Below, one piece after another: positions 1 through 10,507 of a DNA stretch of 37,954 nt (within the stretch, counting starts at the first letter, position 1; the number at the start of each line of letters is the position of its first letter). The stretch lies in UHGV virus genome UHGV-0114795. One strand, written 5' to 3'. The stretch is from a virus. The position numbers were made by a program, and so were the translations under genes. The notes under the pieces were generated by a model, which saw only the letters and a list, made by a program, of their open reading frames with translations, had not been told where the DNA came from and did not search any database.

Positions 1-933
1 ATGGACAACGACAAAATTGATCAACACAGCGACGAAATTGAAGTTGAGAGCGAAGAAAAAGAGCGCGGCAAAAAAATAGAAATAGATGAAGACCGACTCC
101 CCTCCCGGGCGATGGCAATTCATGAGCATATCCGCCAGGATGGTGAAAAAGAGCTGGAACGCGACGCAATGGCGCTACTGTGGTCAGCCATTGCGGCGGG
201 TCTGTCGATGGGCGCTTCGTTACTGGCAAAAGGGATATTTCATGTCGAACTGGAAGGTGTGCCGGGCAGCTTCTTACTGGAGAATCTCGGTTATACCTTT
301 GGTTTTATTATCGTCATAATGGCCCGCCAGCAATTATTTACCGAAAACACCGTGACTGCGGTACTACCCGTCATGCAAAAACCGACAATGAGCAACGTTG
401 GCTTACTTATGCGGTTATGGGGAGTCGTGCTGCTGGGTAATATTCTCGGGACTGGTATTGCTGCGTGGGCATTTGAATATATGCCTATCTTCAATGAAGA
501 AACTCGCGATGCATTTGTCAAAATCGGCATGGATGTGATGAAGAACACCCCCAGCGAGATGTTTGCCAACGCGATCATTTCCGGCTGGCTGATCGCCACT
601 ATGGTATGGATGTTTCCTGCAGCAGGTGCGGCAAAGATTGTGGTGATTATATTGATGACCTGGCTTATTGCCCTGGGTGACACCACCCATATCGTGGTCG
701 GTTCTGTTGAAATCCTCTATCTGGTGTTTAACGGTACGCTGCACTGGAGCGATTTCATCTGGCCCTTCGCACTACCTACTTTAGCGGGGAACATCTGCGG
801 CGGCACCTTTATCTTCGCGTTAATGAGTCATGCACAGATTCGTAACGACATGAGCAACAAGCGTAAAGCAGAAGCACGCCAAAAAGCAGAACGTGCGGAA
901 AACATTAAGAAAAATGATAAAAACCCGGCATAA
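1..933 (+). CDS. yfdC: Formate/nitrite transporter (FNT) family inner membrane protein, host gene
   Basis: 310-aa ORF starting at ATG at position 1; multi-pass hydrophobic protein; recalled as matching E. coli YfdC, which lies immediately upstream of argW in K-12. Not verified by search. Confidence 0.8.
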   Translation: MDNDKIDQHSDEIEVESEEKERGKKIEIDEDRLPSRAMAIHEHIRQDGEKELERDAMALLWSAIAAGLSMGASLLAKGIFHVELEGVPGSFLLENLGYTFGFIIVIMARQQLFTENTVTAVLPVMQKPTMSNVGLLMRLWGVVLLGNILGTGIAAWAFEYMPIFNEETRDAFVKIGMDVMKNTPSEMFANAIISGWLIATMVWMFPAAGAAKIVVIILMTWLIALGDTTHIVVGSVEILYLVFNGTLHWSDFIWPFALPTLAGNICGGTFIFALMSHAQIRNDMSNKRKAEARQKAERAENIKKNDKNPA

Positions 934-1008
934 ATGGCGAGGGTTTAAGCAATCGAGCGGCAGCGTACTTACCCCGCACTCCATTAGCGGGTATACTCAT
1001 GCCGCATT

Positions 1009-1083
1009 GTCCTCTTAGTTAAATGGATATAACGAGCCCCTCCTAAGGGCTAATTGCAGGTTCGATTCCTGCAGGGGACACCA
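1009..1083 (+). tRNA. argW: tRNA-Arg (anticodon CCU)
   Basis: 75 nt read from sequence: acceptor stem GTCCTCT/AGGGGAC, anticodon loop with CCT flanked by stem AGCCC/GGGCT, T-loop GGTTCGATTCC, 3' CCA encoded. Known prophage integration target. Confidence 0.9.
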
Positions 1084-1244
1084 TTTATCAGTTCGCTACC
1101 ATCCGTACCAGTCCGCAAAATCCCCTTAATATCAAGCCTTCCGTAGATTCACAGTTCGTCATGGTTCGCTTCAGATCGTTGACAGCCGCACTCCATGACG
1201 GGTAAAAAGTGGATAAAATAATTTTACCCACCGGATTTTTACCC

Positions 1245-2402
1245 ATGCTCACCGTTAAGCAGATTGAAGCAGCAAAGCCGAAAGAAAAACCATACCGCCT
1301 TCTCGATGGTAATGGCCTGTACCTTTATGTCCCTGTATCCGGGAAAAAGGTATGGCAGCTTCGCTACAAGATTGACGGTAAGGAAAAAATACTGACCGTA
1401 GGAAAATATCCGCTTATGACTTTGCAGGAGGCAAGGGATAAAGCATGGACTGCGAGGAAAGACATCTCGGTTGGCATCGATCCGGTAAAAGCGAAAAAGG
1501 CTTCGTCTAACAACAACTCCTTTAGCGCCATTTACAAGGAATGGTACGAGCACAAGAAGCAAGTCTGGTCAGTAGGCTATGCAAATGAACTTGCAAAAAT
1601 GTTTGATGACGACATTTTACCCATCATCGGCGGCCTTGAAATTCAGGATATTGAGCCGATGCAACTGTTGGAAGTAATCCGCAGATTTGAAGATCGCGGC
1701 GCAATGGAGCGAGCAAACAAAGCACGCAGAAGATGCGGCGAGGTTTTCCGTTACGCTATTGTCACCGGAAGGGCTAAATATAACCCGGCACCTGACCTTG
1801 CTGACGCCATGAAGGGATACCGCAAGAAGAACTTCCCGTTTCTTCCTGCAGACCAGATCCCGGCATTTAACAAAGCACTTGCAACATTTTCAGGAAGCAT
1901 CGTATCGCTCATTGCGACCAAAGTTTTACGCTACACAGCCCTAAGAACGAAAGAGCTTCGTTCCATGCTATGGAAGAACGTCGATTTTGAAAACAGGATT
2001 ATCACTATCGACGCCAGTGTGATGAAGGGCCGCAAGATTCATGTTGTTCCTATGTCAGACCAGGTGGTTGAACTTCTCACTACGCTAAGCTCAATCACCA
2101 AACCAGTATCAGAGTTTGTTTTTGCCGGTCGCAACGATAAGAAGAAGCCAATCTGCGAGAACGCGGTACTGCTTGTGATCAAACAAATCGGCTATGAAGG
2201 TCTGGAAAGCGGTCACGGATTCAGGCATGAATTCAGCACGATTATGAACGAGCACGAATGGCCTGCTGATGCTATTGAAGTGCAACTGGCACATGCCAAC
2301 GGCGGATCTGTGCGCGGGATTTACAACCATGCTCAGTATCTAGATAAGCGCAGAGAAATGATGCAGTGGTGGGCGGACTGGATTGATGAAAAGGTAGAGT
2401 GA
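1245..2402 (+). CDS. intS: Tyrosine recombinase, P4-like prophage integrase (CPS-53/KpLE1 IntS type)
   Basis: 385 aa from ATG at 1245 (MLTVKQIEAAKPKEK...), recalled as essentially identical to E. coli K-12 IntS next to argW; ORF-track start at 1209 (GTG) is probably an upstream extension. C-terminal catalytic region with R...H..R...Y pattern. Confidence 0.85.
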   Translation: MLTVKQIEAAKPKEKPYRLLDGNGLYLYVPVSGKKVWQLRYKIDGKEKILTVGKYPLMTLQEARDKAWTARKDISVGIDPVKAKKASSNNNSFSAIYKEWYEHKKQVWSVGYANELAKMFDDDILPIIGGLEIQDIEPMQLLEVIRRFEDRGAMERANKARRRCGEVFRYAIVTGRAKYNPAPDLADAMKGYRKKNFPFLPADQIPAFNKALATFSGSIVSLIATKVLRYTALRTKELRSMLWKNVDFENRIITIDASVMKGRKIHVVPMSDQVVELLTTLSSITKPVSEFVFAGRNDKKKPICENAVLLVIKQIGYEGLESGHGFRHEFSTIMNEHEWPADAIEVQLAHANGGSVRGIYNHAQYLDKRREMMQWWADWIDEKVE

Positions 2403-2529
2403 GCGACCTTAACAACTATCGAATAGCACAAAGCCTTGCAGTCAGTACAAAGCTTTGTGTTCATCAGTTTTGTCTCATCAACCACAGTAAGTCATCGATC
2501 GATTAAGAATTTGATGATAGTTTTGTCAA

Positions 2530-4455
2530 CTATAGCAATCTTATTTCTCCACCATGAACATTTATTGGCGTCATAAGAAGCGGACTCTCTACTACGACAA
2601 ACCCATTTTCATTACTTATAACCGGAGTCTTTGATTCATCAGATGTTGAAATAACCATCGCTTTATCTCCTGCCACAACACCTAACCAAAACCATGTCCC
2701 CAAGTTATGATCTATCTTCAATGCTAAAAAAATAAGCTGTGTATCAGAGTATTGTATTTGCGTTGTCCATTTTGCTCTAGTGTCTGAACCTGAAACCTCT
2801 GTAGAGACACTTGCGCCAACTGTATGTGCAGCAGAGCTACCGTTACTCATTTTGCCGTTAACAAGCTGCGGGTGGTATTTACTGGTCTGTTTGGCTTTCC
2901 CTACAACTGAACTAAGTCCTAAATCCGGGTGGTAGAAAACTATAGTCTGGTCTACTGTGCTGGCCTCTTTAGCGGATGCAGCAGGTAGTGTTGTACCGCC
3001 TGGTTTTATATCTGTTTGCCAGTGAATGTCGGAAAGGTTGTACGGAGACCCTTCGTTAAGGTCCCACCAAACTGCCCCTCCTCCAATACGGTTATTAGGC
3101 ATAATTCTTACGTTGGTATTGTCGTCGAATGCACCAAACATTTTCATACTGCTACCGTAAATCCAGCAGTTATCCAGCGTAATGTTATTTGCGCTCGTTG
3201 CTATAACCCCATACACATTGCTTTCGTTTGACTCTATGTAGCATGAATCAAACTTGATGTTATATGCACCTGCAATCCAAACACCGTGAGTACGAAAACT
3301 TTCAATACCACAGTTGAACAGCGTAAGTGCCTCTACCGCACCTTCAAACTTAAAACCTACATCACACTCTCCTGTGTGAACCGATACTAATGGCTGAATG
3401 TTGCATTCATCAGTAAAGTGATAGCGATGCAGACCAGTAGTATATGTACCATTGCACTGAAGATTGCGAAATAAAGAGTAAAAGCAGCGCTGAGTGTAAA
3501 CCAACTGCTGGACATTTACTCCAACAATATCTGTAACCTCGCATCCAAATACATGATTCCGCAAACGTAACCCCTGATAGAAATTAATCAGTGTGGCATT
3601 GCGAATTATTGTTCCTATGGTTAGATACTCTTCACCAGACTTTCCAAATACAGAAGATATAGCACCACTAGAAGCTATATAACCAGTCTCAATGAATACG
3701 TTATTTTCGTCGGAAGTATCGTCGCGGCCTACGATGCGAGCGCCCTGAAAATCGATCACTTGCACCCGACGATTAGGGAAATTAGTTTCTTCAATGTCAG
3801 ATGGAGATTCTGAAGCCAACACATAAACTTTACCGGCGATGTAATAGCTTTTCCACGGAGTGGCTACTACTTTAACACCACCTGCACGCCACGCAGCAAT
3901 CAGAGCGGCCTGAAATGCGTGTGTGTCGTCATGCTTGCTTGGGTTATCTTCTCCGTTCAATAAGTAGGCATCGCCATACGCACCAAAGTCATCTACATTA
4001 ATTTCCTGATTAAAGTAGTCAGATGCTTTTCTGGTTGCAGCATCAGCATAAGGCTTCTTAAATGAAATATAAGAAGCACCATCATCAGATGATAAGCGCG
4101 AAGAAAGTTGATCAGGGTCATACTTCAGCACATTAGGGAAATAGAACTGCTGCGATCCATACGCATCATAAACAGCCATAGAATGGCCTTGCACAGTTAC
4201 GAACTTAGCAATCTGTCCGTTATATACCGGGTAACCAGCAGCGTTAATGATGATTGGTTGCGAAACAGGAACGTGAGAGCCGTCTTCGTTCTCCACATAA
4301 ACCTGAATCTGGTTTTCGGGATTTACCGGGTCCGTGTCAATTTTACCGATATAAATTTTACCATTAGCATTTGCTTTAAACGAGCGAGCTAAAGTAAATA
4401 ACTGACTTGGTTGTGAAACAACAACGTTGTATAATTGTTCTGGCATAATAAACAT
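2530..4455 (-). CDS. Tailspike protein: P22 gp9-like N-terminal head-binding domain fused to a divergent receptor-binding domain of unknown specificity
   Basis: N-terminus ([66 protein letters not shown]) closely resembles the P22 tailspike N-terminal domain from memory; the remainder does not resemble P22 gp9. True start may be the ATG at 4446. Confidence 0.8.
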
Positions 4456-4468
4456 TCCGGAGAAAATA

Positions 4469-4969
4469 ATGAGTAAGAGACGTCACGAGGTAGTAACTCG
4501 GGAGCGCCTTATGGAGGTTCTCGATTACAATAAAGAAACAGGAATTTTCACTTGGAAAAAGAAATTAAGCGCCAGAGGTGCTGTTGGGAAAGTTGCTGGC
4601 ACAATTTCTTATGGATATAACGCGATTAATATTGATGGCGTAAGATATTTTGCACATAGACTTGCCTGGCTGTATGTATATGGCGAATGGCCCAAACAAG
4701 AGATTGACCACATTGATAGAAACAGAAGAAATAACGCAATCTCAAACCTTAGGGATGTTAGCAGAGTCGTAAATGCATTAAATGTCGGACCTCGAAATAG
4801 CAATGCTGGAATCAAGGGGGTAACTTTCTGTCAAGCCAGAAATCAATGGCAAGCTCAGATAAATGTCTCAGGTAAAAACATAACCCTTGGGAGATTCAAC
4901 ACCATTGATGAAGCGGCTATAGCTTATAAGGCAGCAAACATGGTTGCTGACCATCTGTTGAGTAGGTAA
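4469..4969 (+). CDS. HNH homing endonuclease with C-terminal AP2-like DNA-binding domain
   Basis: HNH_3-like motif ([36 protein letters not shown]) followed by AP2-like segment ([40 protein letters not shown]). GGAG 6 nt upstream of ATG at 4469. Opposite strand to both neighbours. Confidence 0.7.
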
Positions 4970-5079: not shown

Positions 5080-5961
5080 TCAGTAGTTATGTACTGAAGG
5101 AGGTAATTCTTTATTCTTAAGTCTCATCCATGCGGAAAGATTCGTTGGTCCGTCTGGCTCATTAATATCAACATCTCGTGTGTGGTTTATTAAAACGTCT
5201 CTCGCCATTCCGATAACATACGAGAATTCATGACCGTAGTCGTAGCATCTGCCGGAATAGTTCGATTGAATTTGTTTTAGCGCCGGATACAGTTCGCGGA
5301 ATAATGCCTGTGAGCGGTTGGCATAATCCCATAACCATACAAGGTTGTTTGCTTCTTTTGCAGAAAGCTCGTTGGTTTTCTTCTCTTGTTTGCCAATGAA
5401 CTCACCTTCAAGCACTACCCTGTGGATGTACTCTACGGCCAGCGGGATTTGTTCAATTGAAAGTTCATCAATGCTGTCAATACCAAAACGCTGATGAACC
5501 ATATTGTATGCATCGTCATAGCGAAGTCCTTTCTTTCCTACCAGCATGTTTACTGCATCGCGTAGCGGCGTTCTTTCCTCAACAGTGGTTTTCTTGCCTT
5601 TCACATACTCGCCATGTTTGCGAATTGAAGGTAGAACTTCTGCTGTTACCCACTTGCGGAATTTGTGCGGGACCGAACCTTTATTGACAGCATCGCGGCA
5701 GCGCAGAACCAATGTATACATACCTGATTCGCTAACAATGCTTAGATTCTGCTCACCACCAAGGGTGTAACTTAAAGTTACTCCCTTTTCATCGTCATCA
5801 AGTGCAGTAAGCGCCTTGCGTGAGTTAGTCAGGGTTAAAGCATCACAAACATCTTTTGCTACAAACCACGGCTCACCGCATTTGTTGATGACGCGGATTT
5901 CACTGTCGCCGAATTTGAAGATGGTGAAATCGTTTTGTGCCTTTGCTATACTTTTCATGTC
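5080..5961 (-). CDS. ant: Antirepressor (Bro-N/KilA-N N-terminal domain), P22 Ant-like
   Basis: Position downstream of arc in immI operon; N-terminal [25 protein letters not shown] pattern typical of Bro-N antirepressors. Start chosen at ATG 5961 (AGGAAA upstream) rather than the ORF-track start at 6024. Confidence 0.75.
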
Positions 5962-6026
5962 AATATTTCCTAATCCGATTTGTTGATACCGAAGCCCTGA
6001 CTGTTCCCGCAGTTGGGGCTTCAACT

Positions 6027-6188: not shown

Positions 6189-6204
6189 ATTCACCTCACA
6201 ATAT

Positions 6205-6221
6205 AGGTCCACCGTGGACCT
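6205..6221. promoter_or_regulatory. Mnt operator (Omnt), 17-bp palindrome
   Basis: AGGTCCACCGTGGACCT read directly: perfect 8+1+8 inverted repeat in the arc/mnt divergent region, matching the known P22 Mnt operator arrangement. Confidence 0.75.
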
Positions 6222-6230
6222 ATTGAGAAT

Positions 6231-6251
6231 ATAGTAGAGTGCTTCTATCAT
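6231..6251. promoter_or_regulatory. Arc operator (Oarc)
   Basis: ATAGTAGAGTGCTTCTATCAT with TAGA..TCTA symmetry, between the arc start and mnt; matches remembered P22 Arc operator. Confidence 0.75.
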
Positions 6252-6278
6252 GTCAATACACTAACTTGGAGTGATGGC

Positions 6279-6530
6279 ATGGCTAGAGATGATCCGCACT
6301 TTAACTTCCGTATGCCTATGGAAGTAAGGGAGAAATTAAAATTCAGGGCGGAGGCGAATGGGAGATCAATGAACTCCGAGTTGTTACAAATCGTCCAAGA
6401 TGCTCTATCAAAACCATCGCCTGTGACTGGATATCGCGACGATGCAGAACGACTCGCTGATGAGCAGTCAGAGCTTGTTAAGAAGATGGTGTTTGATACG
6501 CTGAAGGATTTGTACAAAAAACCCACCTGA
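6279..6530 (+). CDS. mnt: Mnt repressor (maintenance of lysogeny; represses ant)
   Basis: MARDDPHFNFRMPMEVREKLKFRAEANGRSMNSELLQIVQDALSK... recalled as near-identical to P22 Mnt; GGAG 8 nt upstream of ATG. Confidence 0.9.
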   Translation: MARDDPHFNFRMPMEVREKLKFRAEANGRSMNSELLQIVQDALSKPSPVTGYRDDAERLADEQSELVKKMVFDTLKDLYKKPT

Positions 6531-6548
6531 AGGTGGGTCCTATTTATT
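6519..6548. terminator. Bidirectional intrinsic terminator between convergent mnt and lipoprotein gene
   Basis: Hairpin ACCCACC-TGAA-GGTGGGT flanked by AAAAAA on one side and a T-rich stretch (CCTATTTATT) on the other; the mnt stop codon lies in the loop. Confidence 0.6.
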
Positions 6549-6966
6549 AGTCTTGCTTTGTTGATGGTATAAGAGATGCGTTTGCCTCTTTTGGCTTCAA
6601 GGTATACATTCCACCATTAAATGGATCTACAGCAAGCCAACCAATTAACCCACCAAACACAAGGTTCCCACCAATATACCAACCATTAGCATTGGCTTTG
6701 ATTGGCAGGGTAACTGGTTCATACCCATCCTTCTCCATAGTGATCTGGTAGTTCTTTTTGCCAAAATAGCTACCATCTGACTTGGCGAGCGTTACACCTT
6801 GTGGGGTCCTACCTTGCGCAACAATCACACCTGACTCATCTTTTACCTTAAAGCTCGCGCCAGAAGGATTGCTGTTCACTTGCACAAGTTGCGTTTCATC
6901 ACCAACAATAGTTGCGCACCCAGATAACATCATAGCGCCAGCAACGACGCCAATAATCCTCTTCAT
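6547..6966 (-). CDS. Predicted lipoprotein of unknown function at the P22 sieA position
   Basis: Signal peptide with lipobox (MKRIIGVVAGAMMLSGC); possible PEGA-like segment (VNSNPSGASFKV); glycine-rich C-terminus. No confident homologue recalled. Start could be 6978. Confidence 0.6.
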   Translation of the reverse strand: MKRIIGVVAGAMMLSGCATIVGDETQLVQVNSNPSGASFKVKDESGVIVAQGRTPQGVTLAKSDGSYFGKKNYQITMEKDGYEPVTLPIKANANGWYIGGNLVFGGLIGWLAVDPFNGGMYTLKPKEANASLIPSTKQD

Positions 6967-7083
6967 ATCAATTTCCATATTTAAAAAACCGGAAACATCC
7001 TAATGACAAACCATTCAAATGTGAAGTAGGCAAAAGATGTTTACTTTTTTCATGGTATCCTGCTCAAAACTAAGGAGGTTGGT

Positions 7084-7272
7084 GTGAAGAAAAAATTTGT
7101 AAACGTTGCAAAGTGCGCAATTTTTATATTTTTTATGACCTTTTACGGATTTAGTGCCGGAGAAGGTTTCGATCGTGATGCCAATGCATTCAGTTTCTTT
7201 TGTCTGTCTATAGTGGTCATAATTGTATGGGTGGAATTAAAGCAAACATTGTTTCATGTGCTAAGGAAATAA
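7084..7272 (+). CDS. Small hydrophobic protein (62 aa), hypothetical
   Basis: Strong SD AAGGAGG 5 nt before GTG start; two hydrophobic segments; AT-rich codon usage unlike flanking genes. Confidence 0.45.
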   Translation: MKKKFVNVAKCAIFIFFMTFYGFSAGEGFDRDANAFSFFCLSIVVIIVWVELKQTLFHVLRK

Positions 7273-7289
7273 CCATCCATGGCATTTAG

Positions 7290-9131
7290 TCACTGCTGTG
7301 TTGCCTCAGTGGCAAGCAGCGGTCTGATGGCATTTGCAGCGTTACTTAATGCTCTTTCATAGGCTGGCGTTCCTGCTTTGGTGTTTGCCAGACGTAAGAG
7401 CGCATTCCTTGCTGCTTTGGACTCATACAAGCGCATCATTGCACCGAAACCAGCCTCAATCCCCATTGATACGCCAAGAGTCGCAGTTGCGCCAATCGTC
7501 CTTATCCTGTTGGCTTGTGATTGCCCCGTCTGAGTTACTACATTTGCGGTGTCTGACCTTGCTGTTTGCTGTAGAACTTCATGAAGAGCATCAAGCTCTT
7601 TCATGTGCTTTCCAGAAAAAATAGTGTTGTAAATTTCACCGCCTGACTGAGATTTCAGCTTATTAACTTCAGTGATGAACTTGGCTGGAGAGACACCGGC
7701 CTTTTCCGCTATTTTGCTGACGTAAGCTGCACGCATAGCATCTTTCCCTTTATCATCCAGTGCGCTCCATATTCGTTTCACGTCAGATGGTTTTCTGCTT
7801 AATACAACGGTATTTATAAGTTCAGGGCTGGCTTCACTGCTTGCCTTGTTGAGTTTGTTAGCAATGTTTTTATTAAGCACCTTATTATAAACGTTTGCAT
7901 AATCAGAATTTGCTTTAAGGTATTTTGCTGCGTCTGATGCACCGAGGTTTTTTGCAACTGCGTTACGAAGGTCTTTTGACATTGCATTCTCTACCATATT
8001 GGTAGCTGCTTTTGCCTGGTTGGGGAAGACCATAGCATCTCCCTGAACATTAGATCTAAATGCCGTTCTGTGCTGACGCAAGAGATCAAACGTAACATCC
8101 AAATCAGTTGCAGGGTTTGCTAATTCTTCACGTAGGTTACGCAAGGATGTAAGCAGGCTTTGATTGGCAGACGTCCCAAGTCGTTCCTGTCTTGCGATCG
8201 CTGTATTCAGAGCATTCATGGTATTTGTGGTATCAACTGCGGCATTACCCATTTTATTGGTGACGTCATTGATAACAGCGCCAGCGGCATCCTTCCGCCC
8301 CCTTAACGTGGTGGTCAGAGATTTCACCACATCATCAGGGTTGTACTCACCAAAACGGTCAAAATAATTGCTTACCAGCTTACTACGCGTTGCATATTGC
8401 TCCGCTCTCTTTGAGCCTGTCCCGAGCAAAGCCCCCTCGGCATCCTGAGTAAGGCCGCGAGTGAAAGCATTTTTCGGCGGGATAACATCAGATGTCATTG
8501 GTGTCACGCCCATCGATTCTGATGTGGCAATTTTCTTCGCCACTTCTGGCGCAATATCACCTTTTATAGCCGTTATTCCACGCCCTATTCCCTTTGCTGC
8601 TGCGGAAAGAACACCCTGAGCGGCAAGGTTAACTCCTGCATTTTTAGCTGCATTTTGTGCGAAATCGCCTTTCTGATTTGCGGCCTCTGCCAGTGATCCA
8701 ATAGCCATGCTTCCTGCCGTTCCAACTCCTGGAACTAAATACCCACCAATTGTTTCACCTGCTTGTGCGTAGGGGTCTGTCGGTCTGTCTACTGGACGAT
8801 AAACATCATCCAATACTTTTGGCCCACCAAGCCCCTGACTGATTGCATTAATCAGACTTGCGCCACCCTGCAATACGTCAAATGGTATGTTTACCAGACC
8901 ACGACCAGCCTGCTCTGCAATTTGCCCTGCACTTTGACCACCAGTGAGCCAATCGCCAGCTTGTTGCATCAATGATGGTTCTTCACGTGCTGGTTCATTA
9001 TTGGCCTGATTAACTGTTTGTTGCTGAACAGCCTGACCAGCAAAATACTCATCAATGGCGGTGCCAATATCTTCCGTGCTCGTACCATCAGGGAAGGTAA
9101 ATGTCTTACCGTTTGCAGTTACTTTCATCAT
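7290..9131 (-). CDS. Ejection/internal virion protein, P22 gp16-like
   Basis: N-terminus [32 protein letters not shown] recalled as P22 gp16; size 613 aa vs about 609; last gene of the 7-20-16 series; ATGA overlap with gp20 stop. Confidence 0.85.
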
Positions 9132-10507
9132 TCCACCGTAAATTGAATGCCTGATTTTGACGTGTAGCTACCTCCTGCTGATTGCTGAGTAGGCGGCTGT
9201 TGCATTGATGATTTCTTCCCTCCATTACCGACATTAACGTTATATTGCTGGTTGTAATTGTCGGTATATTGCTGAATGTCGCGCATTGATTGTTGCAGTG
9301 CTTCAGGGCTTGAGAAATCAACCTGTGGCATACCTTGAAAATACATTTTTGCTTCTGCAACGGTGTTGATACCGGATGCCCCCATGTCTCTGGCTGCTGC
9401 AATGCCCTGATTCTGCATCTTTCCTTGGATTCGCTGTGCGGCGTTGTATAGTTTCCTCTGATCACCACCAGATGCACGGCTACGAATATCTGCACCAAGA
9501 GCAGGAGAACCTGAAGAGCCTGTAATGCCAGTCATGAAGCCAAGATCGTCAATTGATGCACCAGAAATTGCATCAAGATCTTTCTTCATTGCGTAATTCT
9601 GCGCGCTTGCTGCCGATGTAGCCGGAGCGGCAATAGAGCCAGCAGGGACGCGAACCATATTCCCCTCGTTGTCGATACCTTCGTAGAACGCATTAGCCCC
9701 AGCGCCGTGAAGCTTCCCGCCTACCGTTACAGTTCTGCCATCTGCTAACTGAACTGTACGCTCATTATTCCCAACCGATCCTTTCATTGATGCTCTCTGC
9801 ATCGATAAATCCTGACCGCGCATCGTGATATTCTGACCACGTGCTGTTAGCGCCTCGCCAGCCTGATTGCTGCGGATTGTCTCTGCCAGCCTGCCTCTGT
9901 CAATTTCACGACCAGCCATCTTGTCCTGAACAGCAAACGCCTTTTCTGGTCCAAGCGCACCGAGAGACATAGTAGTCAGCATGTGTGATAGCTGCTCTGG
10001 ATTCTGAATACCTGTCTGAATCATCCAGTCAGCATTCGCACCCACACGATTTAACCTGTCCTTGTTGTCAGTAATGAATTTACTGTAGGCTTCCGGTCCC
10101 TGAGAAAGAGCGACGTTAGCCCTCATGGCTAAATCGCCCATATCGTTGCGTTGCTGATCATTAAGACCGGAAAACGCCTGTTGTGCCTGTGCAACAAACG
10201 CTGGATTTTCCTGGGCAAACTTAAATAGTCCCGATGGATCACCAGAAGCCCATGCATCAGCGTGAACCTTATTGAACGCACTAATAGCTTTCTGTTGCTG
10301 TTCCTGATTGTAAATATCAGCAACTCCAGCCAGACCACGTAACGCGGTCAGACCAACGTTATTTGCACCTGAGCGAGCCAGTTCATTGTTTTCGCGGATC
10401 AGACCAAGCGTTGCGTTAATGTCGCTTGCCTTTGGCGCATTCTCATTTTGCGTACCGATGCCAGCCAGAAAACCACCAGAATTAATACCCTGCTGCCACG
10501 TAGCCAT
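9128..10507 (-). CDS. Ejection protein, P22 gp20-like
   Basis: Synteny (between gp7 and gp16) and size (459 aa vs about 471); low-complexity Ala/Gly/Gln-rich composition typical of ejection proteins. Confidence 0.8.

What the first reader, a model, noticed from the sequence alone, without database searches (positions are those of the whole stretch)
6547..7289. Uncharacterised lipoprotein plus AT-rich small membrane protein at the superinfection-exclusion (sieA) locus
P22 carries sieA between gene 16 and mnt. Here that slot holds a 139-aa lipoprotein (lipobox LSGC, possible PEGA-like fold, Gly-rich C-terminus) and, on the opposite strand, a 62-aa hydrophobic protein with a strong SD and clearly lower GC than its surroundings. 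The lipoprotein is flanked by a bidirectional terminator, suggesting expression in the lysogen. This is the most plausible site in the window for an unstudied exclusion or defence function, but the evidence is positional only.
Basis: inference. Interest (0 to 1): 0.6.

Follow-up and report, generated by a model that had tools for sequence, protein, structure and literature searches.

The report
Two prophage accessory envelope genes
Between the DNA-ejection gene and the mnt repressor gene of this E. coli P22-like prophage sit two real but functionally untested add-on genes: a small two-helix membrane protein in the place, and behind the leader, of the P22 exclusion gene sieA, and an outer-membrane lipoprotein borrowed from bacteria that many unrelated prophages carry.

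Summary
Window 6547-6966(-) encodes a 139-aa lipoprotein (lipobox LSGC, PEGA-type beta-sandwich, conserved Gly-rich hydrophobic motif). Window 7084-7272(+) encodes a 62-aa two-helix membrane protein (SD AAGGAGG, 34% GC against 48% for the window). A hairpin at 6521-6538 can terminate both strands.

The two genes are independent of each other. The 62-aa gene sits exactly in the sieA slot. Its 50 nt of leader, RBS and GTG are 96% identical to P22 sieA. In related prophages the same leader precedes at least six other unrelated envelope proteins, so this is a swappable cassette site whose only characterised occupant is SieA.

The lipoprotein is epsilon34 gene 15 (PHROG 6823, function unknown). Close relatives are self-contained add-on genes (morons) in siphovirus prophages, including the slot that holds the HK97 gp15 exclusion gene. 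More distant relatives (53-61% identity) are syntenic chromosomal genes across Erwiniaceae, and the whole family has thousands of clusters. No Sie, Cor, Bor, TraT or defence family matches either protein.

Function remains inferred. The 62-aa protein is a reasonable candidate for an injection blocker. The lipoprotein is more likely a general envelope factor. Both sequences are already in databases as hypothetical proteins or unannotated ORFs. Interest is moderate.

The parts
6279..6530 (+). mnt repressor gene (context; left border of the variable segment)
   Evidence: Pfam Arc plus Repressor_Mnt, E=4e-30 and 7e-19. 98% nt identity to P22 mnt.
6521..6538 (.). Hairpin that can terminate both strands, shared by the convergent mnt and lipoprotein genes
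   Evidence: Terminator scan. RNA folds on both strands give -15.8 and -15.0 kcal/mol, z -2.2 and -2.5. The - strand stem is followed by UUUUUU. The identical site is annotated as a rho-independent terminator in epsilon34.
6547..6966 (-). 139-aa lipoprotein gene (an alternative upstream ATG at 6978 gives 143 aa). Signal peptide plus lipobox LSGC, Ala at +2, PEGA-type beta-sandwich, conserved Gly-rich hydrophobic motif, C-terminal hairpin
   Evidence: About 99% nt and 96% aa identity to epsilon34 gene 15.
6997..7025 (-). Promoter-like site for the lipoprotein gene (TTCACA-17-TAGGAT)
   Evidence: 9 of 12 match to consensus. A TAnnnT element followed by GTTTCYG at the same distance from the start codon is conserved in siphovirus-borne and chromosomal copies. 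Activity was not tested.
7037..7083 (+). sieA-type leader, with an extended -10-like TGGTATCCT (7053-7061) and SD AAGGAGG (7072-7078)
   Evidence: Window 7037-7086 is 96% identical to P22 3473-3522 in locus L025, the annotated PsieA 3' part, 5'UTR and GTG of sieA. The same leader precedes unrelated cassette genes in 50 of 80 IMG/VR loci.
7084..7272 (+). 62-aa two-helix membrane protein gene occupying the sieA slot, ending 17 nt from the gp16 stop codon
   Evidence: Unannotated in phages JEP4, phiv205-1 and UPF_BP1 and in the RefSeq E. coli records shown.
7290..9131 (-). gene 16-type ejection protein gene (context; right border of the variable segment)
   Evidence: Annotated as DNA transfer protein in the identical E. 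coli locus. PF26808 Phage_P22_gp16 is assigned to the homologues in L018-L021.

Best explanation
The segment holds two independent, horizontally exchanged accessory genes (morons) in the variable 'ant moron'/immI region of a P22-like prophage of E. coli integrated at argW.

(a) The 62-aa gene. It encodes a small inner-membrane helical hairpin with N- and C-termini in the cytoplasm and a short acidic periplasmic loop. It is one allele of a swappable cassette site. A conserved leader, the same one that precedes P22 sieA, is joined in different prophages to at least seven unrelated membrane, periplasmic or lipoprotein genes, always next to the 3' end of gene 16. By analogy with SieA, HK97 gp15 and T4 Imm, its most likely role is to be made in the lysogen and to hinder the ejection-protein conduit of incoming P22-like phages at the inner membrane. 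This role is inferred, not shown.

(b) The lipoprotein gene. It is a bacterial envelope lipoprotein gene that phages captured together with its own -10 region and a terminator. It has since spread among podovirus and siphovirus prophages of several genera. The protein is probably tethered to the inner leaflet of the outer membrane, because it has no Asp at +2. It presents a PEGA beta-sandwich to the periplasm, plus a conserved Gly-rich hydrophobic hairpin that may dip into the membrane or drive oligomerisation. Its whole length is conserved with chromosomal orthologues, and it occurs in phages with quite different injection machines. I therefore think it most likely supplies the lysogen with the family's ancestral envelope function, such as a barrier, stress or outer-membrane-protein-associated role. 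A phage-specific block is the second possibility.
For: Shown:
- Gene reality and conservation.
- Identity of the leader to P22 sieA.
- Leavitt et al. 2024 (PMC10883804) report that sieA with 85 bp of upstream DNA, inserted in single copy, excludes P22. The window shares the proximal 47 bp of that stretch.
- Cassette diversity behind the same leader: a 129-aa secreted protein, 107-aa and 109-aa TM-plus-coiled-coil proteins, a 75-aa multi-TM protein, a 161-aa lipoprotein, the 62-aa protein and SieA. Each belongs to a different PHROG.
- The 62-aa gene always lies 17 nt from the gp16 stop, with varying upstream partners: a lipoprotein, a Rap1a-fold protein, or a c2-type repressor.
- Lipoprotein homologues sit between the tail chaperone and tape-measure genes (E. 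coli, Proteus), between tail genes I and J (Pseudescherichia), and next to Q and an antirepressor (Actinobacillus). Two of these copies have their own terminators.
- The chaperone/tape-measure position is the slot of the HK97 gp15 exclusion moron (PMC3594210).
- A chromosomal clade in Erwiniaceae is syntenic, nrdE-DUF2002-mmuPM-lipoprotein-GNAT, in about 45 of 80 species loci.
- The family comprises 5205 clusters at E<=1e-3.
- A -10-like element is conserved between phage and chromosomal copies.
- The AlphaFold models and hydropathy profiles fit the proposed architectures.
Against: - No experiment or transcript data exist for either gene.
- The -35 part of the annotated PsieA is not conserved in the window, so promoter activity is assumed.
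- The lipoprotein promoter match is weak, 9 of 12.
- The 62-aa protein has no detectable similarity to SieA (E=0.25) or to any Pfam, NCBIfam or PADLOC family.
- A small two-helix membrane peptide could equally be a toxin-like or holin-like protein.
- The lipoprotein's position beside ejection, tape-measure or tip genes in three different phage types could instead point to a phage-directed role.
- Outer-membrane sorting and the behaviour of the Gly-rich segment are predictions. pLDDT there is 53-66.
Confidence: 0.5

Rival explanations
1. Both proteins are superinfection-exclusion factors. The outer-membrane lipoprotein masks or inactivates an outer-membrane component that incoming phages need, as Cor and Llp do with FhuA. 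The 62-aa protein blocks the inner-membrane step. Together they form a two-layer barrier.
For: - Both lie in the segment where P22 has sieA.
- Lipoprotein homologues occupy the HK97 gp15 exclusion slot and lie next to tape-measure or J genes.
- The mobile clade has been kept in many prophages.
- In two Pasteurellaceae genera the chromosomal copy lies 10-17 nt downstream of an OmpA-like barrel gene. This hints at a partnership with outer-membrane proteins.
Against: - There is no similarity to Cor, Llp, Bor or TraT. The only Cor hits cover the signal peptide, PHROG 1119 at residues 5-24 and NF047972 at E=0.11.
- The genes occur independently of each other.
- Full-length conservation with core chromosomal orthologues argues against a new phage-specific function.
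- The carrier phages use different receptors and different injection machines.
Confidence: 0.25
2. The lipoprotein is a host-fitness (lysogenic conversion) factor unrelated to phages, for example raising resistance to serum, bile, detergent or antimicrobial peptides, as lambda Bor does. The 62-aa peptide is a small membrane regulator or a type-I-toxin-like or holin-like peptide rather than an exclusion protein.
For: - A core, syntenic chromosomal clade and a very large family imply a cellular function.
- The gene is co-oriented with the late operon, as is usual for morons.
- The 62-aa protein has the size, two helices and basic ends seen in pinholins and small membrane toxins.
- Late transcripts would be antisense to the 62-aa gene, from the gene orientation.
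Against: - The 62-aa gene carries a strong SD and the sieA leader, and is stably kept in at least 89 complete E. coli genomes. That is unlikely for an unregulated toxin.
- It is far from the lysis cassette.
- Every characterised occupant of this slot (only SieA) is an exclusion protein.
Confidence: 0.2
3. The 62-aa ORF is not a gene but a chance ORF in AT-rich spacer DNA left behind by cassette exchange.
For: It is unannotated in three phage records and in the RefSeq E. coli records shown. It is short and AT-rich.
Against: - Its 62-codon length is the same in E. coli, Salmonella and Serratia at 75-81% aa identity, with no frameshifts.
- dN/dS is 0.30-0.42 against the Salmonella and Serratia copies, and 0.17 between those two.
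- 33 columns are invariant.
- It has a strong SD and matches a PHROG family at E=5e-45.
Confidence: 0.03

Closest known systems
P22 SieA (inner-membrane superinfection-exclusion protein; PHROG 7745)
   Same: The 62-aa gene has the same genomic slot, convergent with gene 16. It has the same leader, RBS and GTG (96% over 50 nt). It is a predicted inner-membrane protein of a P22-like prophage.
   Different: There is no sequence similarity (E=0.25). It is 62 aa with two helices, against 164 aa with several TM segments. SieA's FxRYPxEAxxFNK motif is absent. No exclusion phenotype is known.
HK97 gp15 moron (small inner-membrane exclusion protein related to YebO)
   Same: It is an accessory gene inserted in a late operon, with bacterial chromosomal homologues. 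Siphovirus-borne homologues of the lipoprotein sit in exactly the gp15 slot, between the tail chaperone and tape-measure genes. The 62-aa protein resembles gp15 in being a very small membrane protein.
   Different: The sequences are unrelated. The lipoprotein is predicted to be in the outer membrane. gp15 diverged from YebO at its C-terminus, whereas this lipoprotein is conserved over its whole length with chromosomal relatives.
Salmonella phage epsilon34 gene 15 (PHROG 6823)
   Same: It is the same gene: about 99% nt and 96% aa identity, same neighbours (mnt, terminator, leader).
   Different: In epsilon34 the cassette behind the leader is gene 14 (hkcB-like, a 107-aa TM-plus-coiled-coil protein) instead of the 62-aa gene. 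[quoted passage not shown]
Phage exclusion or conversion lipoproteins Cor (phi80/N15), Llp (T5), Bor (lambda), TraT
   Same: All are small prophage-encoded lipoproteins predicted to be in the outer membrane and encoded as add-on genes.
   Different: No homology was found. Hits to Cor models cover only the signal peptide. The fold is a PEGA sandwich with a Gly-rich motif that none of these proteins has.
PEGA domain (PF08308) / transthyretin-like beta-sandwich proteins
   Different: The score is below Pfam's gathering threshold. The family adds a lipid anchor and the conserved GWYxGGNxxFGGLIGWxxVDPxxGxMY segment, which matches only the uncharacterised NCBIfam LEPBI_I2678 family weakly (E=6e-5).

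Membership tests
SieA superinfection-exclusion family | Sequence homology to SieA types A, B or C (conserved FxRYPxEAxxFNK motif; PHROG 7745) | tested here: not met
   BLASTP of the 62-aa protein against P22 SieA gave E=0.25. The PHROG scans assign 21338 (62-aa protein) and 6823 (lipoprotein), not 7745.
SieA superinfection-exclusion family | Gene lies between the gene 16 and gene 9 homologues of a P22-like prophage, convergent with gene 16, behind the sieA leader | tested here: met
   For the 62-aa gene: 17 nt from the gp16 stop, and a leader 96% identical to P22. This does not apply to the lipoprotein gene, which is on the opposite strand.
SieA superinfection-exclusion family | Blocks DNA injection by P22-like phages | not testable with these tools
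   Needs plating, K+ efflux and DNA-entry assays.
Moron (Juhala/Hendrix sense) | Present in some and absent from other closely related phage genomes | tested here: met
   The lipoprotein is in epsilon34, Gally and 720R6 but not in P22 or JEP4. The 62-aa gene is in JEP4, phiv205-1 and UPF_BP1 but not in epsilon34 or P22.
Moron (Juhala/Hendrix sense) | Own promoter and terminator allowing expression from the repressed prophage | tested here: inconclusive
   Terminators are clear: window 6521-6538, L017 8523-8540 and L010 8432-8451. Promoters are only consensus-like sites plus conservation. No transcript data are available.
Moron (Juhala/Hendrix sense) | Base composition differs from the surrounding genes | tested here: met
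   The 62-aa gene is 34.4% GC and the intergenic region 33.3%, against 47.7% for the window. The lipoprotein gene is only slightly lower, at 44.8%.
Bacterial lipoprotein (signal peptidase II substrate), outer-membrane sorted | Lipobox [LVI][ASTVI][GAS]C after a hydrophobic signal peptide; no Asp at +2 | tested here: met
   L-S-G-C, with Cys invariant across the family and Ala at +2. The sorting rule comes from established E. coli Lol knowledge. Localisation itself is untested.
PEGA domain (Pfam PF08308) | Score at or above the Pfam gathering threshold | tested here: not met
   18.1 bits against a cut-off of 20.8, E=0.0026.
PEGA domain (Pfam PF08308) | Transthyretin-like or carboxypeptidase-regulatory-like beta-sandwich fold with P-x-G-A and G-x-TP motifs | tested here: met
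Cor / Llp / Bor / TraT phage lipoproteins | Sequence or profile homology over the mature protein | tested here: not met
   Only the signal peptide aligned. No Pfam hit to the Lambda_Bor or TraT families at E<=0.1.
Known anti-phage defence systems (PADLOC-DB) | Match to any defence-protein model | tested here: not met
   No hits for either protein at E<=1.
Glycine-zipper outer-membrane lipoproteins (SlyB/Pcp type) | Gly-zipper Pfam domains or profile similarity | tested here: not met
   No Pfam Gly-zipper hit.
Holin/pinholin | Small two-TM protein encoded in the lysis cassette next to the endolysin gene | tested here: not met
   The two-helix topology fits. But the gene lies about 15 kb from the lysis genes, on the opposite strand to the late operon.

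The most novel reading that the evidence does not exclude
The conserved sieA leader marks a dedicated exchange site. There, P22-like prophages swap a repertoire of at least seven unrelated envelope-targeted proteins, each a distinct exclusion or immunity determinant. SieA is only the first one characterised. The 62-aa hairpin would be a minimal new type of inner-membrane injection blocker. In addition, the widespread PEGA-plus-Gly-rich lipoprotein family (thousands of bacterial clusters) would have an outer-membrane function that phages exploit for exclusion.
Probability: 0.2. Interest if true: 0.65.

Novelty: new member of a known kind. Interest (0 to 1): 0.4.

Why it matters
SieA is the only studied system that blocks DNA delivery by short-tailed phages, and only about a third of P22-like phages carry it (Leavitt et al. 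2024, PMC10883804).

If the other cassettes that share its leader, including this unannotated 62-aa gene found in 89 of 5426 complete E. coli genomes, also exclude phages, they would be a ready-made set of small envelope proteins. They could be used to probe how the gp7/gp20/gp16 conduit crosses the envelope.

The lipoprotein gives a phage-borne handle on a very large bacterial lipoprotein family that nobody has characterised. If neither gene has a phage phenotype, they are ordinary lysogenic-conversion cargo.

Tried and rejected
- Homology to known families. Pfam, NCBIfam, PHROGs and PADLOC gave only unknown-function PHROGs, a sub-threshold PEGA hit and signal-peptide-only hits to Cor.
- Bor-like or SlyB-like C-terminal motif, a lead from memory. 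hhalign aligned only the signal peptides. Rejected.
- The Gly-rich segment as a transmembrane helix, which would keep the protein in the inner membrane. Mean hydropathy is 1.3 over 19 residues, and the invariant C-terminal hairpin packs on the sandwich in the model. Judged unlikely but not excluded.
- The 62-aa protein as a SieA remnant or fragment. No significant similarity.
- Co-variation of the 62-aa gene with the gp16 C-terminus. Similarity extends into gp16 in Salmonella, JEP4 and UPF_BP1 but stops at the gp16 stop codon in Serratia. No consistent linkage.
- The 161-aa gene upstream of the 62-aa gene in Salmonella as SieA. It is a different lipoprotein, PHROG 6067.
- Literature. Searches for PEGA lipoproteins, hkcB/hkcC/orf59a and epsilon34 lipoprotein found no functional study. 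The Cumby 2012 paper was not held, so its companion review was used instead.
- o-spanin. The size, composition and location do not fit.
Full report
**What the window is.**
- The window carries a P22-like (Lederbergvirus-type) prophage of E. coli.
- It begins with a yfdC-like formate/nitrite transporter gene (1-933), followed by tRNA-Arg(CCT) at 1009-1083, an integrase (1209-2402) and a tailspike gene (2530-4455).
- The stretch 6200-7700 is 100% identical to chromosomal loci in several complete E. coli genomes, for example YY76-1.
- Around the finding the order is: ant 5080-6024(-), arc (-), mnt 6279-6530(+), lipoprotein gene 6547-6966(-), 62-aa gene 7084-7272(+), gene 16 homologue 7290-9131(-), gene 20 homologue 9128-10507(-).
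- In P22 the corresponding order is mnt, orf59a, t_mnt, PsieA, sieA, gene 16.

**Checking the observation.** Every described feature is there.
- The lipoprotein ORF is 143 aa from the first ATG. Homologues start at the second ATG, giving 139 aa with lipobox LSGC.
- Pfam PEGA scores 18.1 bits, just under the 20.8-bit cut-off.
- The AlphaFold model built from 40 homologues has mean pLDDT 77. It shows a confident beta-sandwich (residues 25-93), a low-confidence Gly-rich hydrophobic stretch (95-115) and a confident C-terminal hairpin (121-131).
- The 62-aa ORF has AAGGAGG 5 nt before its GTG and is 34.4% GC, against 47.7% for the window.
- It is predicted to form a helical hairpin, H2-25 and H31-61, with basic ends and an acidic loop.
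- It is under purifying selection. It is 62 codons long in E. coli, Salmonella and Serratia, and dN/dS is 0.30-0.42 against the Salmonella and Serratia copies and 0.17 between those two.
- The hairpin at 6521-6538 overlaps the mnt stop codon. On the - strand it is a canonical intrinsic terminator with a U6 tail.

**The 62-aa gene sits in the sieA slot behind the sieA leader.**
- Window 7037-7086 is 96% identical to the P22 segment comprising the 3' part of the annotated PsieA, the 5'UTR, the SD and the GTG of sieA.
- Leavitt et al. 2024 (PMC10883804) found that sieA with 85 bp of upstream DNA excludes P22 from a single chromosomal copy. The window shares the proximal 47 bp but not the annotated -35 hexamer. 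A TGGTATCCT extended -10-like element at 7053-7061 lies in the shared part. Its role as a promoter element is my inference.
- The same leader is joined to other genes elsewhere: epsilon34 gene 14 (hkcB-like) and a 161-aa lipoprotein gene in Salmonella prophages.
- In 50 of 80 IMG/VR loci that carry the lipoprotein, the leader is followed by one of six unrelated proteins:
  - a 129-aa secreted protein (20 loci);
  - a 107-aa TM-plus-coiled-coil protein (12 loci);
  - a 109-aa TM-plus-coiled-coil protein (11 loci);
  - the 62-aa hairpin (4 loci);
  - a 75-aa multi-TM protein (2 loci);
  - the 161-aa lipoprotein (1 locus).
- Each of these belongs to a different PHROG of unknown function. SieA (PHROG 7745) is the only characterised occupant.
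- All are membrane or periplasm-targeted. This is the best circumstantial argument that the slot encodes functions acting on the envelope.
- In Salmonella and Serratia prophages the 62-aa gene is always the last gene before the gp16 stop, 17 nt away. Its upstream partner varies: the 161-aa lipoprotein, a Rap1a-fold protein, or in phage JEP4 a c2-type repressor gene.
- It is unannotated in JEP4, phiv205-1 and UPF_BP1 and in the RefSeq E. coli records shown, although it is present in 89 of 5426 complete E. coli genomes.
- It has no significant similarity to SieA (E=0.25) or to any Pfam, NCBIfam or PADLOC model.

**The lipoprotein is epsilon34 gene 15 and a widely travelled moron.**
- The block 6500-7086 is 98.8% identical to epsilon34. 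The epsilon34 paper (PMC2629481) lists gene 15 as having unknown function and 'matching numerous bacterial genes'.
- Homologues at 67-77% identity lie in unrelated siphovirus prophages:
  - between the tail chaperone (G/T) and tape-measure genes in E. coli and Proteus;
  - between tail genes I and J in Pseudescherichia;
  - beside Q and an antirepressor in Actinobacillus.
- The first of these positions is the slot of the HK97 gp15 exclusion moron (PMC3594210).
- In Proteus and Pseudescherichia the gene has its own strong terminator. In Proteus it also has an upstream terminator and a promoter-like site.
- A TAnnnT element followed by GTTTCYG, about 25-30 nt before the start codon, is conserved between P22-like, siphovirus and chromosomal copies. 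This suggests the gene moved together with its native promoter.
- In every phage context examined here it is co-oriented with the late operon, so it should also be made late in lytic growth.

**The lipoprotein family is bacterial and very large.**
- A profile search of 1.84 billion representatives found 5205 clusters at E<=1e-3 and 1950 at E<=1e-10.
- Across the family the invariant features are the lipobox Cys, the TP and GY motifs of the PEGA domain, and G109, D114, P115, G118 and M120 of the motif GWYxxGNxxFGGLIGWxxVDPxTGxMY.
- In a scan of one genome per species, about 45 of the 80 best loci were Pantoea, Erwinia, Izhakiella or Winslowiella chromosomes. These share the synteny nrdE-DUF2002-(mmuP-mmuM)-lipoprotein-GNAT at 53-61% identity. 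Only six loci were clearly phage-borne by my panel.
- Other copies are chromosomal in Photorhabdus, Lonsdalea and Pasteurellaceae. In two Pasteurellaceae genera the gene lies just downstream of an OmpA-like eight-stranded barrel gene.
- A neighbour-joining tree (no bootstrap support) separates the syntenic Erwiniaceae clade from a mixed 'mobile' clade that holds all the phage copies.
The HK97 gp15/YebO precedent shows that such ancestry does not exclude an exclusion role.

**How the two proteins most likely work.**
- Shown: gene structure, conservation, mobility, the shared leader, the terminators and the predicted architectures.
- Inferred for the 62-aa protein: it is made in the lysogen, inserts in the inner membrane with both ends in the cytoplasm, and interferes with the incoming gp7/gp20/gp16 conduit as SieA does.
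- Inferred for the lipoprotein: it is sorted to the outer membrane (Ala at +2) and faces the periplasm with a PEGA sandwich and a hydrophobic Gly-rich hairpin.
- The Gly-rich segment has mean hydropathy 1.3 over 19 residues, too low for a clear TM helix. The invariant C-terminal hairpin packs back on the sandwich in the model.
- The whole lipoprotein is conserved with chromosomal orthologues, and its carriers use different injection machines. I therefore favour a general envelope function passed to the lysogen over a phage-specific block, without strong confidence.
- The two genes are not a system. Each occurs without the other, and they co-occur in only 4 of 80 IMG/VR loci and in at least 48 complete E. 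coli genomes.

**Comparison with known families and verdict.**
- Neither protein is a member of the SieA, Cor, Llp, Bor, TraT, Imm, holin or PADLOC families.
- Structure searches gave only generic transthyretin-like, CnaB or SlaB-type sandwiches.
- Both sequences are already in public databases. The variability of this 'ant moron' was described in 2008.
- What is new here: the 62-aa gene is a real gene that annotation often misses; it uses the sieA leader; that leader is a junction for at least seven envelope-protein cassettes; and the lipoprotein is a captured bacterial gene shared by podovirus and siphovirus prophages.
- The finding is a sound candidate for experiments rather than a surprise. 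Interest 0.4; novelty: new member of a known kind.

Noticed in passing
window 4427-4969 (+): A 180-aa ORF with HNH_3 (E=2.5e-16) and AP2 (E=5e-6) domains lies between ant and the tailspike gene and overlaps the tailspike 5' end by 29 nt. It looks like a homing-endonuclease-type insertion in the late operon.
   Followed up: no
window 7290-7325: A stable hairpin (-26.8 kcal/mol for 7262-7335, z -3.05, 0 of 200 shuffles as stable) lies inside the last codons of gene 16, immediately downstream of the 62-aa stop. It has no U-run. It could stop or stabilise the convergent transcripts.
   Followed up: partly
window 1-4455: The prophage sits at tRNA-Arg(CCT) (1009-1083) next to a yfdC-like gene. The integrase (1209-2402) lies directly beside the tailspike gene, with no gtrABC O-antigen modification genes between them. 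The otherwise identical mnt-to-gene-16 locus in E. coli YY76-1 lies near dacD/sbmC and has a gtrB-like gene nearby.
   Followed up: no
L022-L024 5643-5999 (Serratia prophages): A Rap1a-fold protein (PF18602, a type VI secretion immunity family, E=7e-16) occupies the position just upstream of the 62-aa gene. The slot therefore also carries a putative anti-bacterial-toxin immunity gene.
   Followed up: partly
L056 9401-9991 and L103 9397-9984 (Pasteurellaceae chromosomes): The chromosomal lipoprotein homologue lies 10-17 nt downstream of a roughly 196-aa OmpA-like eight-stranded beta-barrel gene (PF13505). They may form an operon, which hints at a functional link to outer-membrane proteins.
   Followed up: partly
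L028 8900-10414 (Erwiniaceae bacterium CAU 1747): A lipoprotein copy nearly identical to an IMG/VR phage copy sits with one other small ORF between genes that look like sapC and sapB, next to pspF/pspA. I identified those genes from their N-terminal sequences only. It appears to be a tiny insertion without recognisable phage genes.
   Followed up: no
L005-L008 12261-13424 and 14376-16388 (E. coli siphovirus prophages): The same prophages that carry the lipoprotein between the T and tape-measure genes also carry a porin gene (Porin_1) between tail genes M and L, and a ClpP/Arc/antirepressor block after L. Their tail operon therefore holds three separate add-on insertions.
   Followed up: no
L018-L021 5483-5968 (Salmonella prophages); 17 of 80 IMG/VR loci: A second, unrelated 161-aa lipoprotein (PHROG 6067, unknown function) is the commonest upstream partner of the 62-aa gene in Salmonella. 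It often co-occurs with the PEGA-type lipoprotein.
   Followed up: partly
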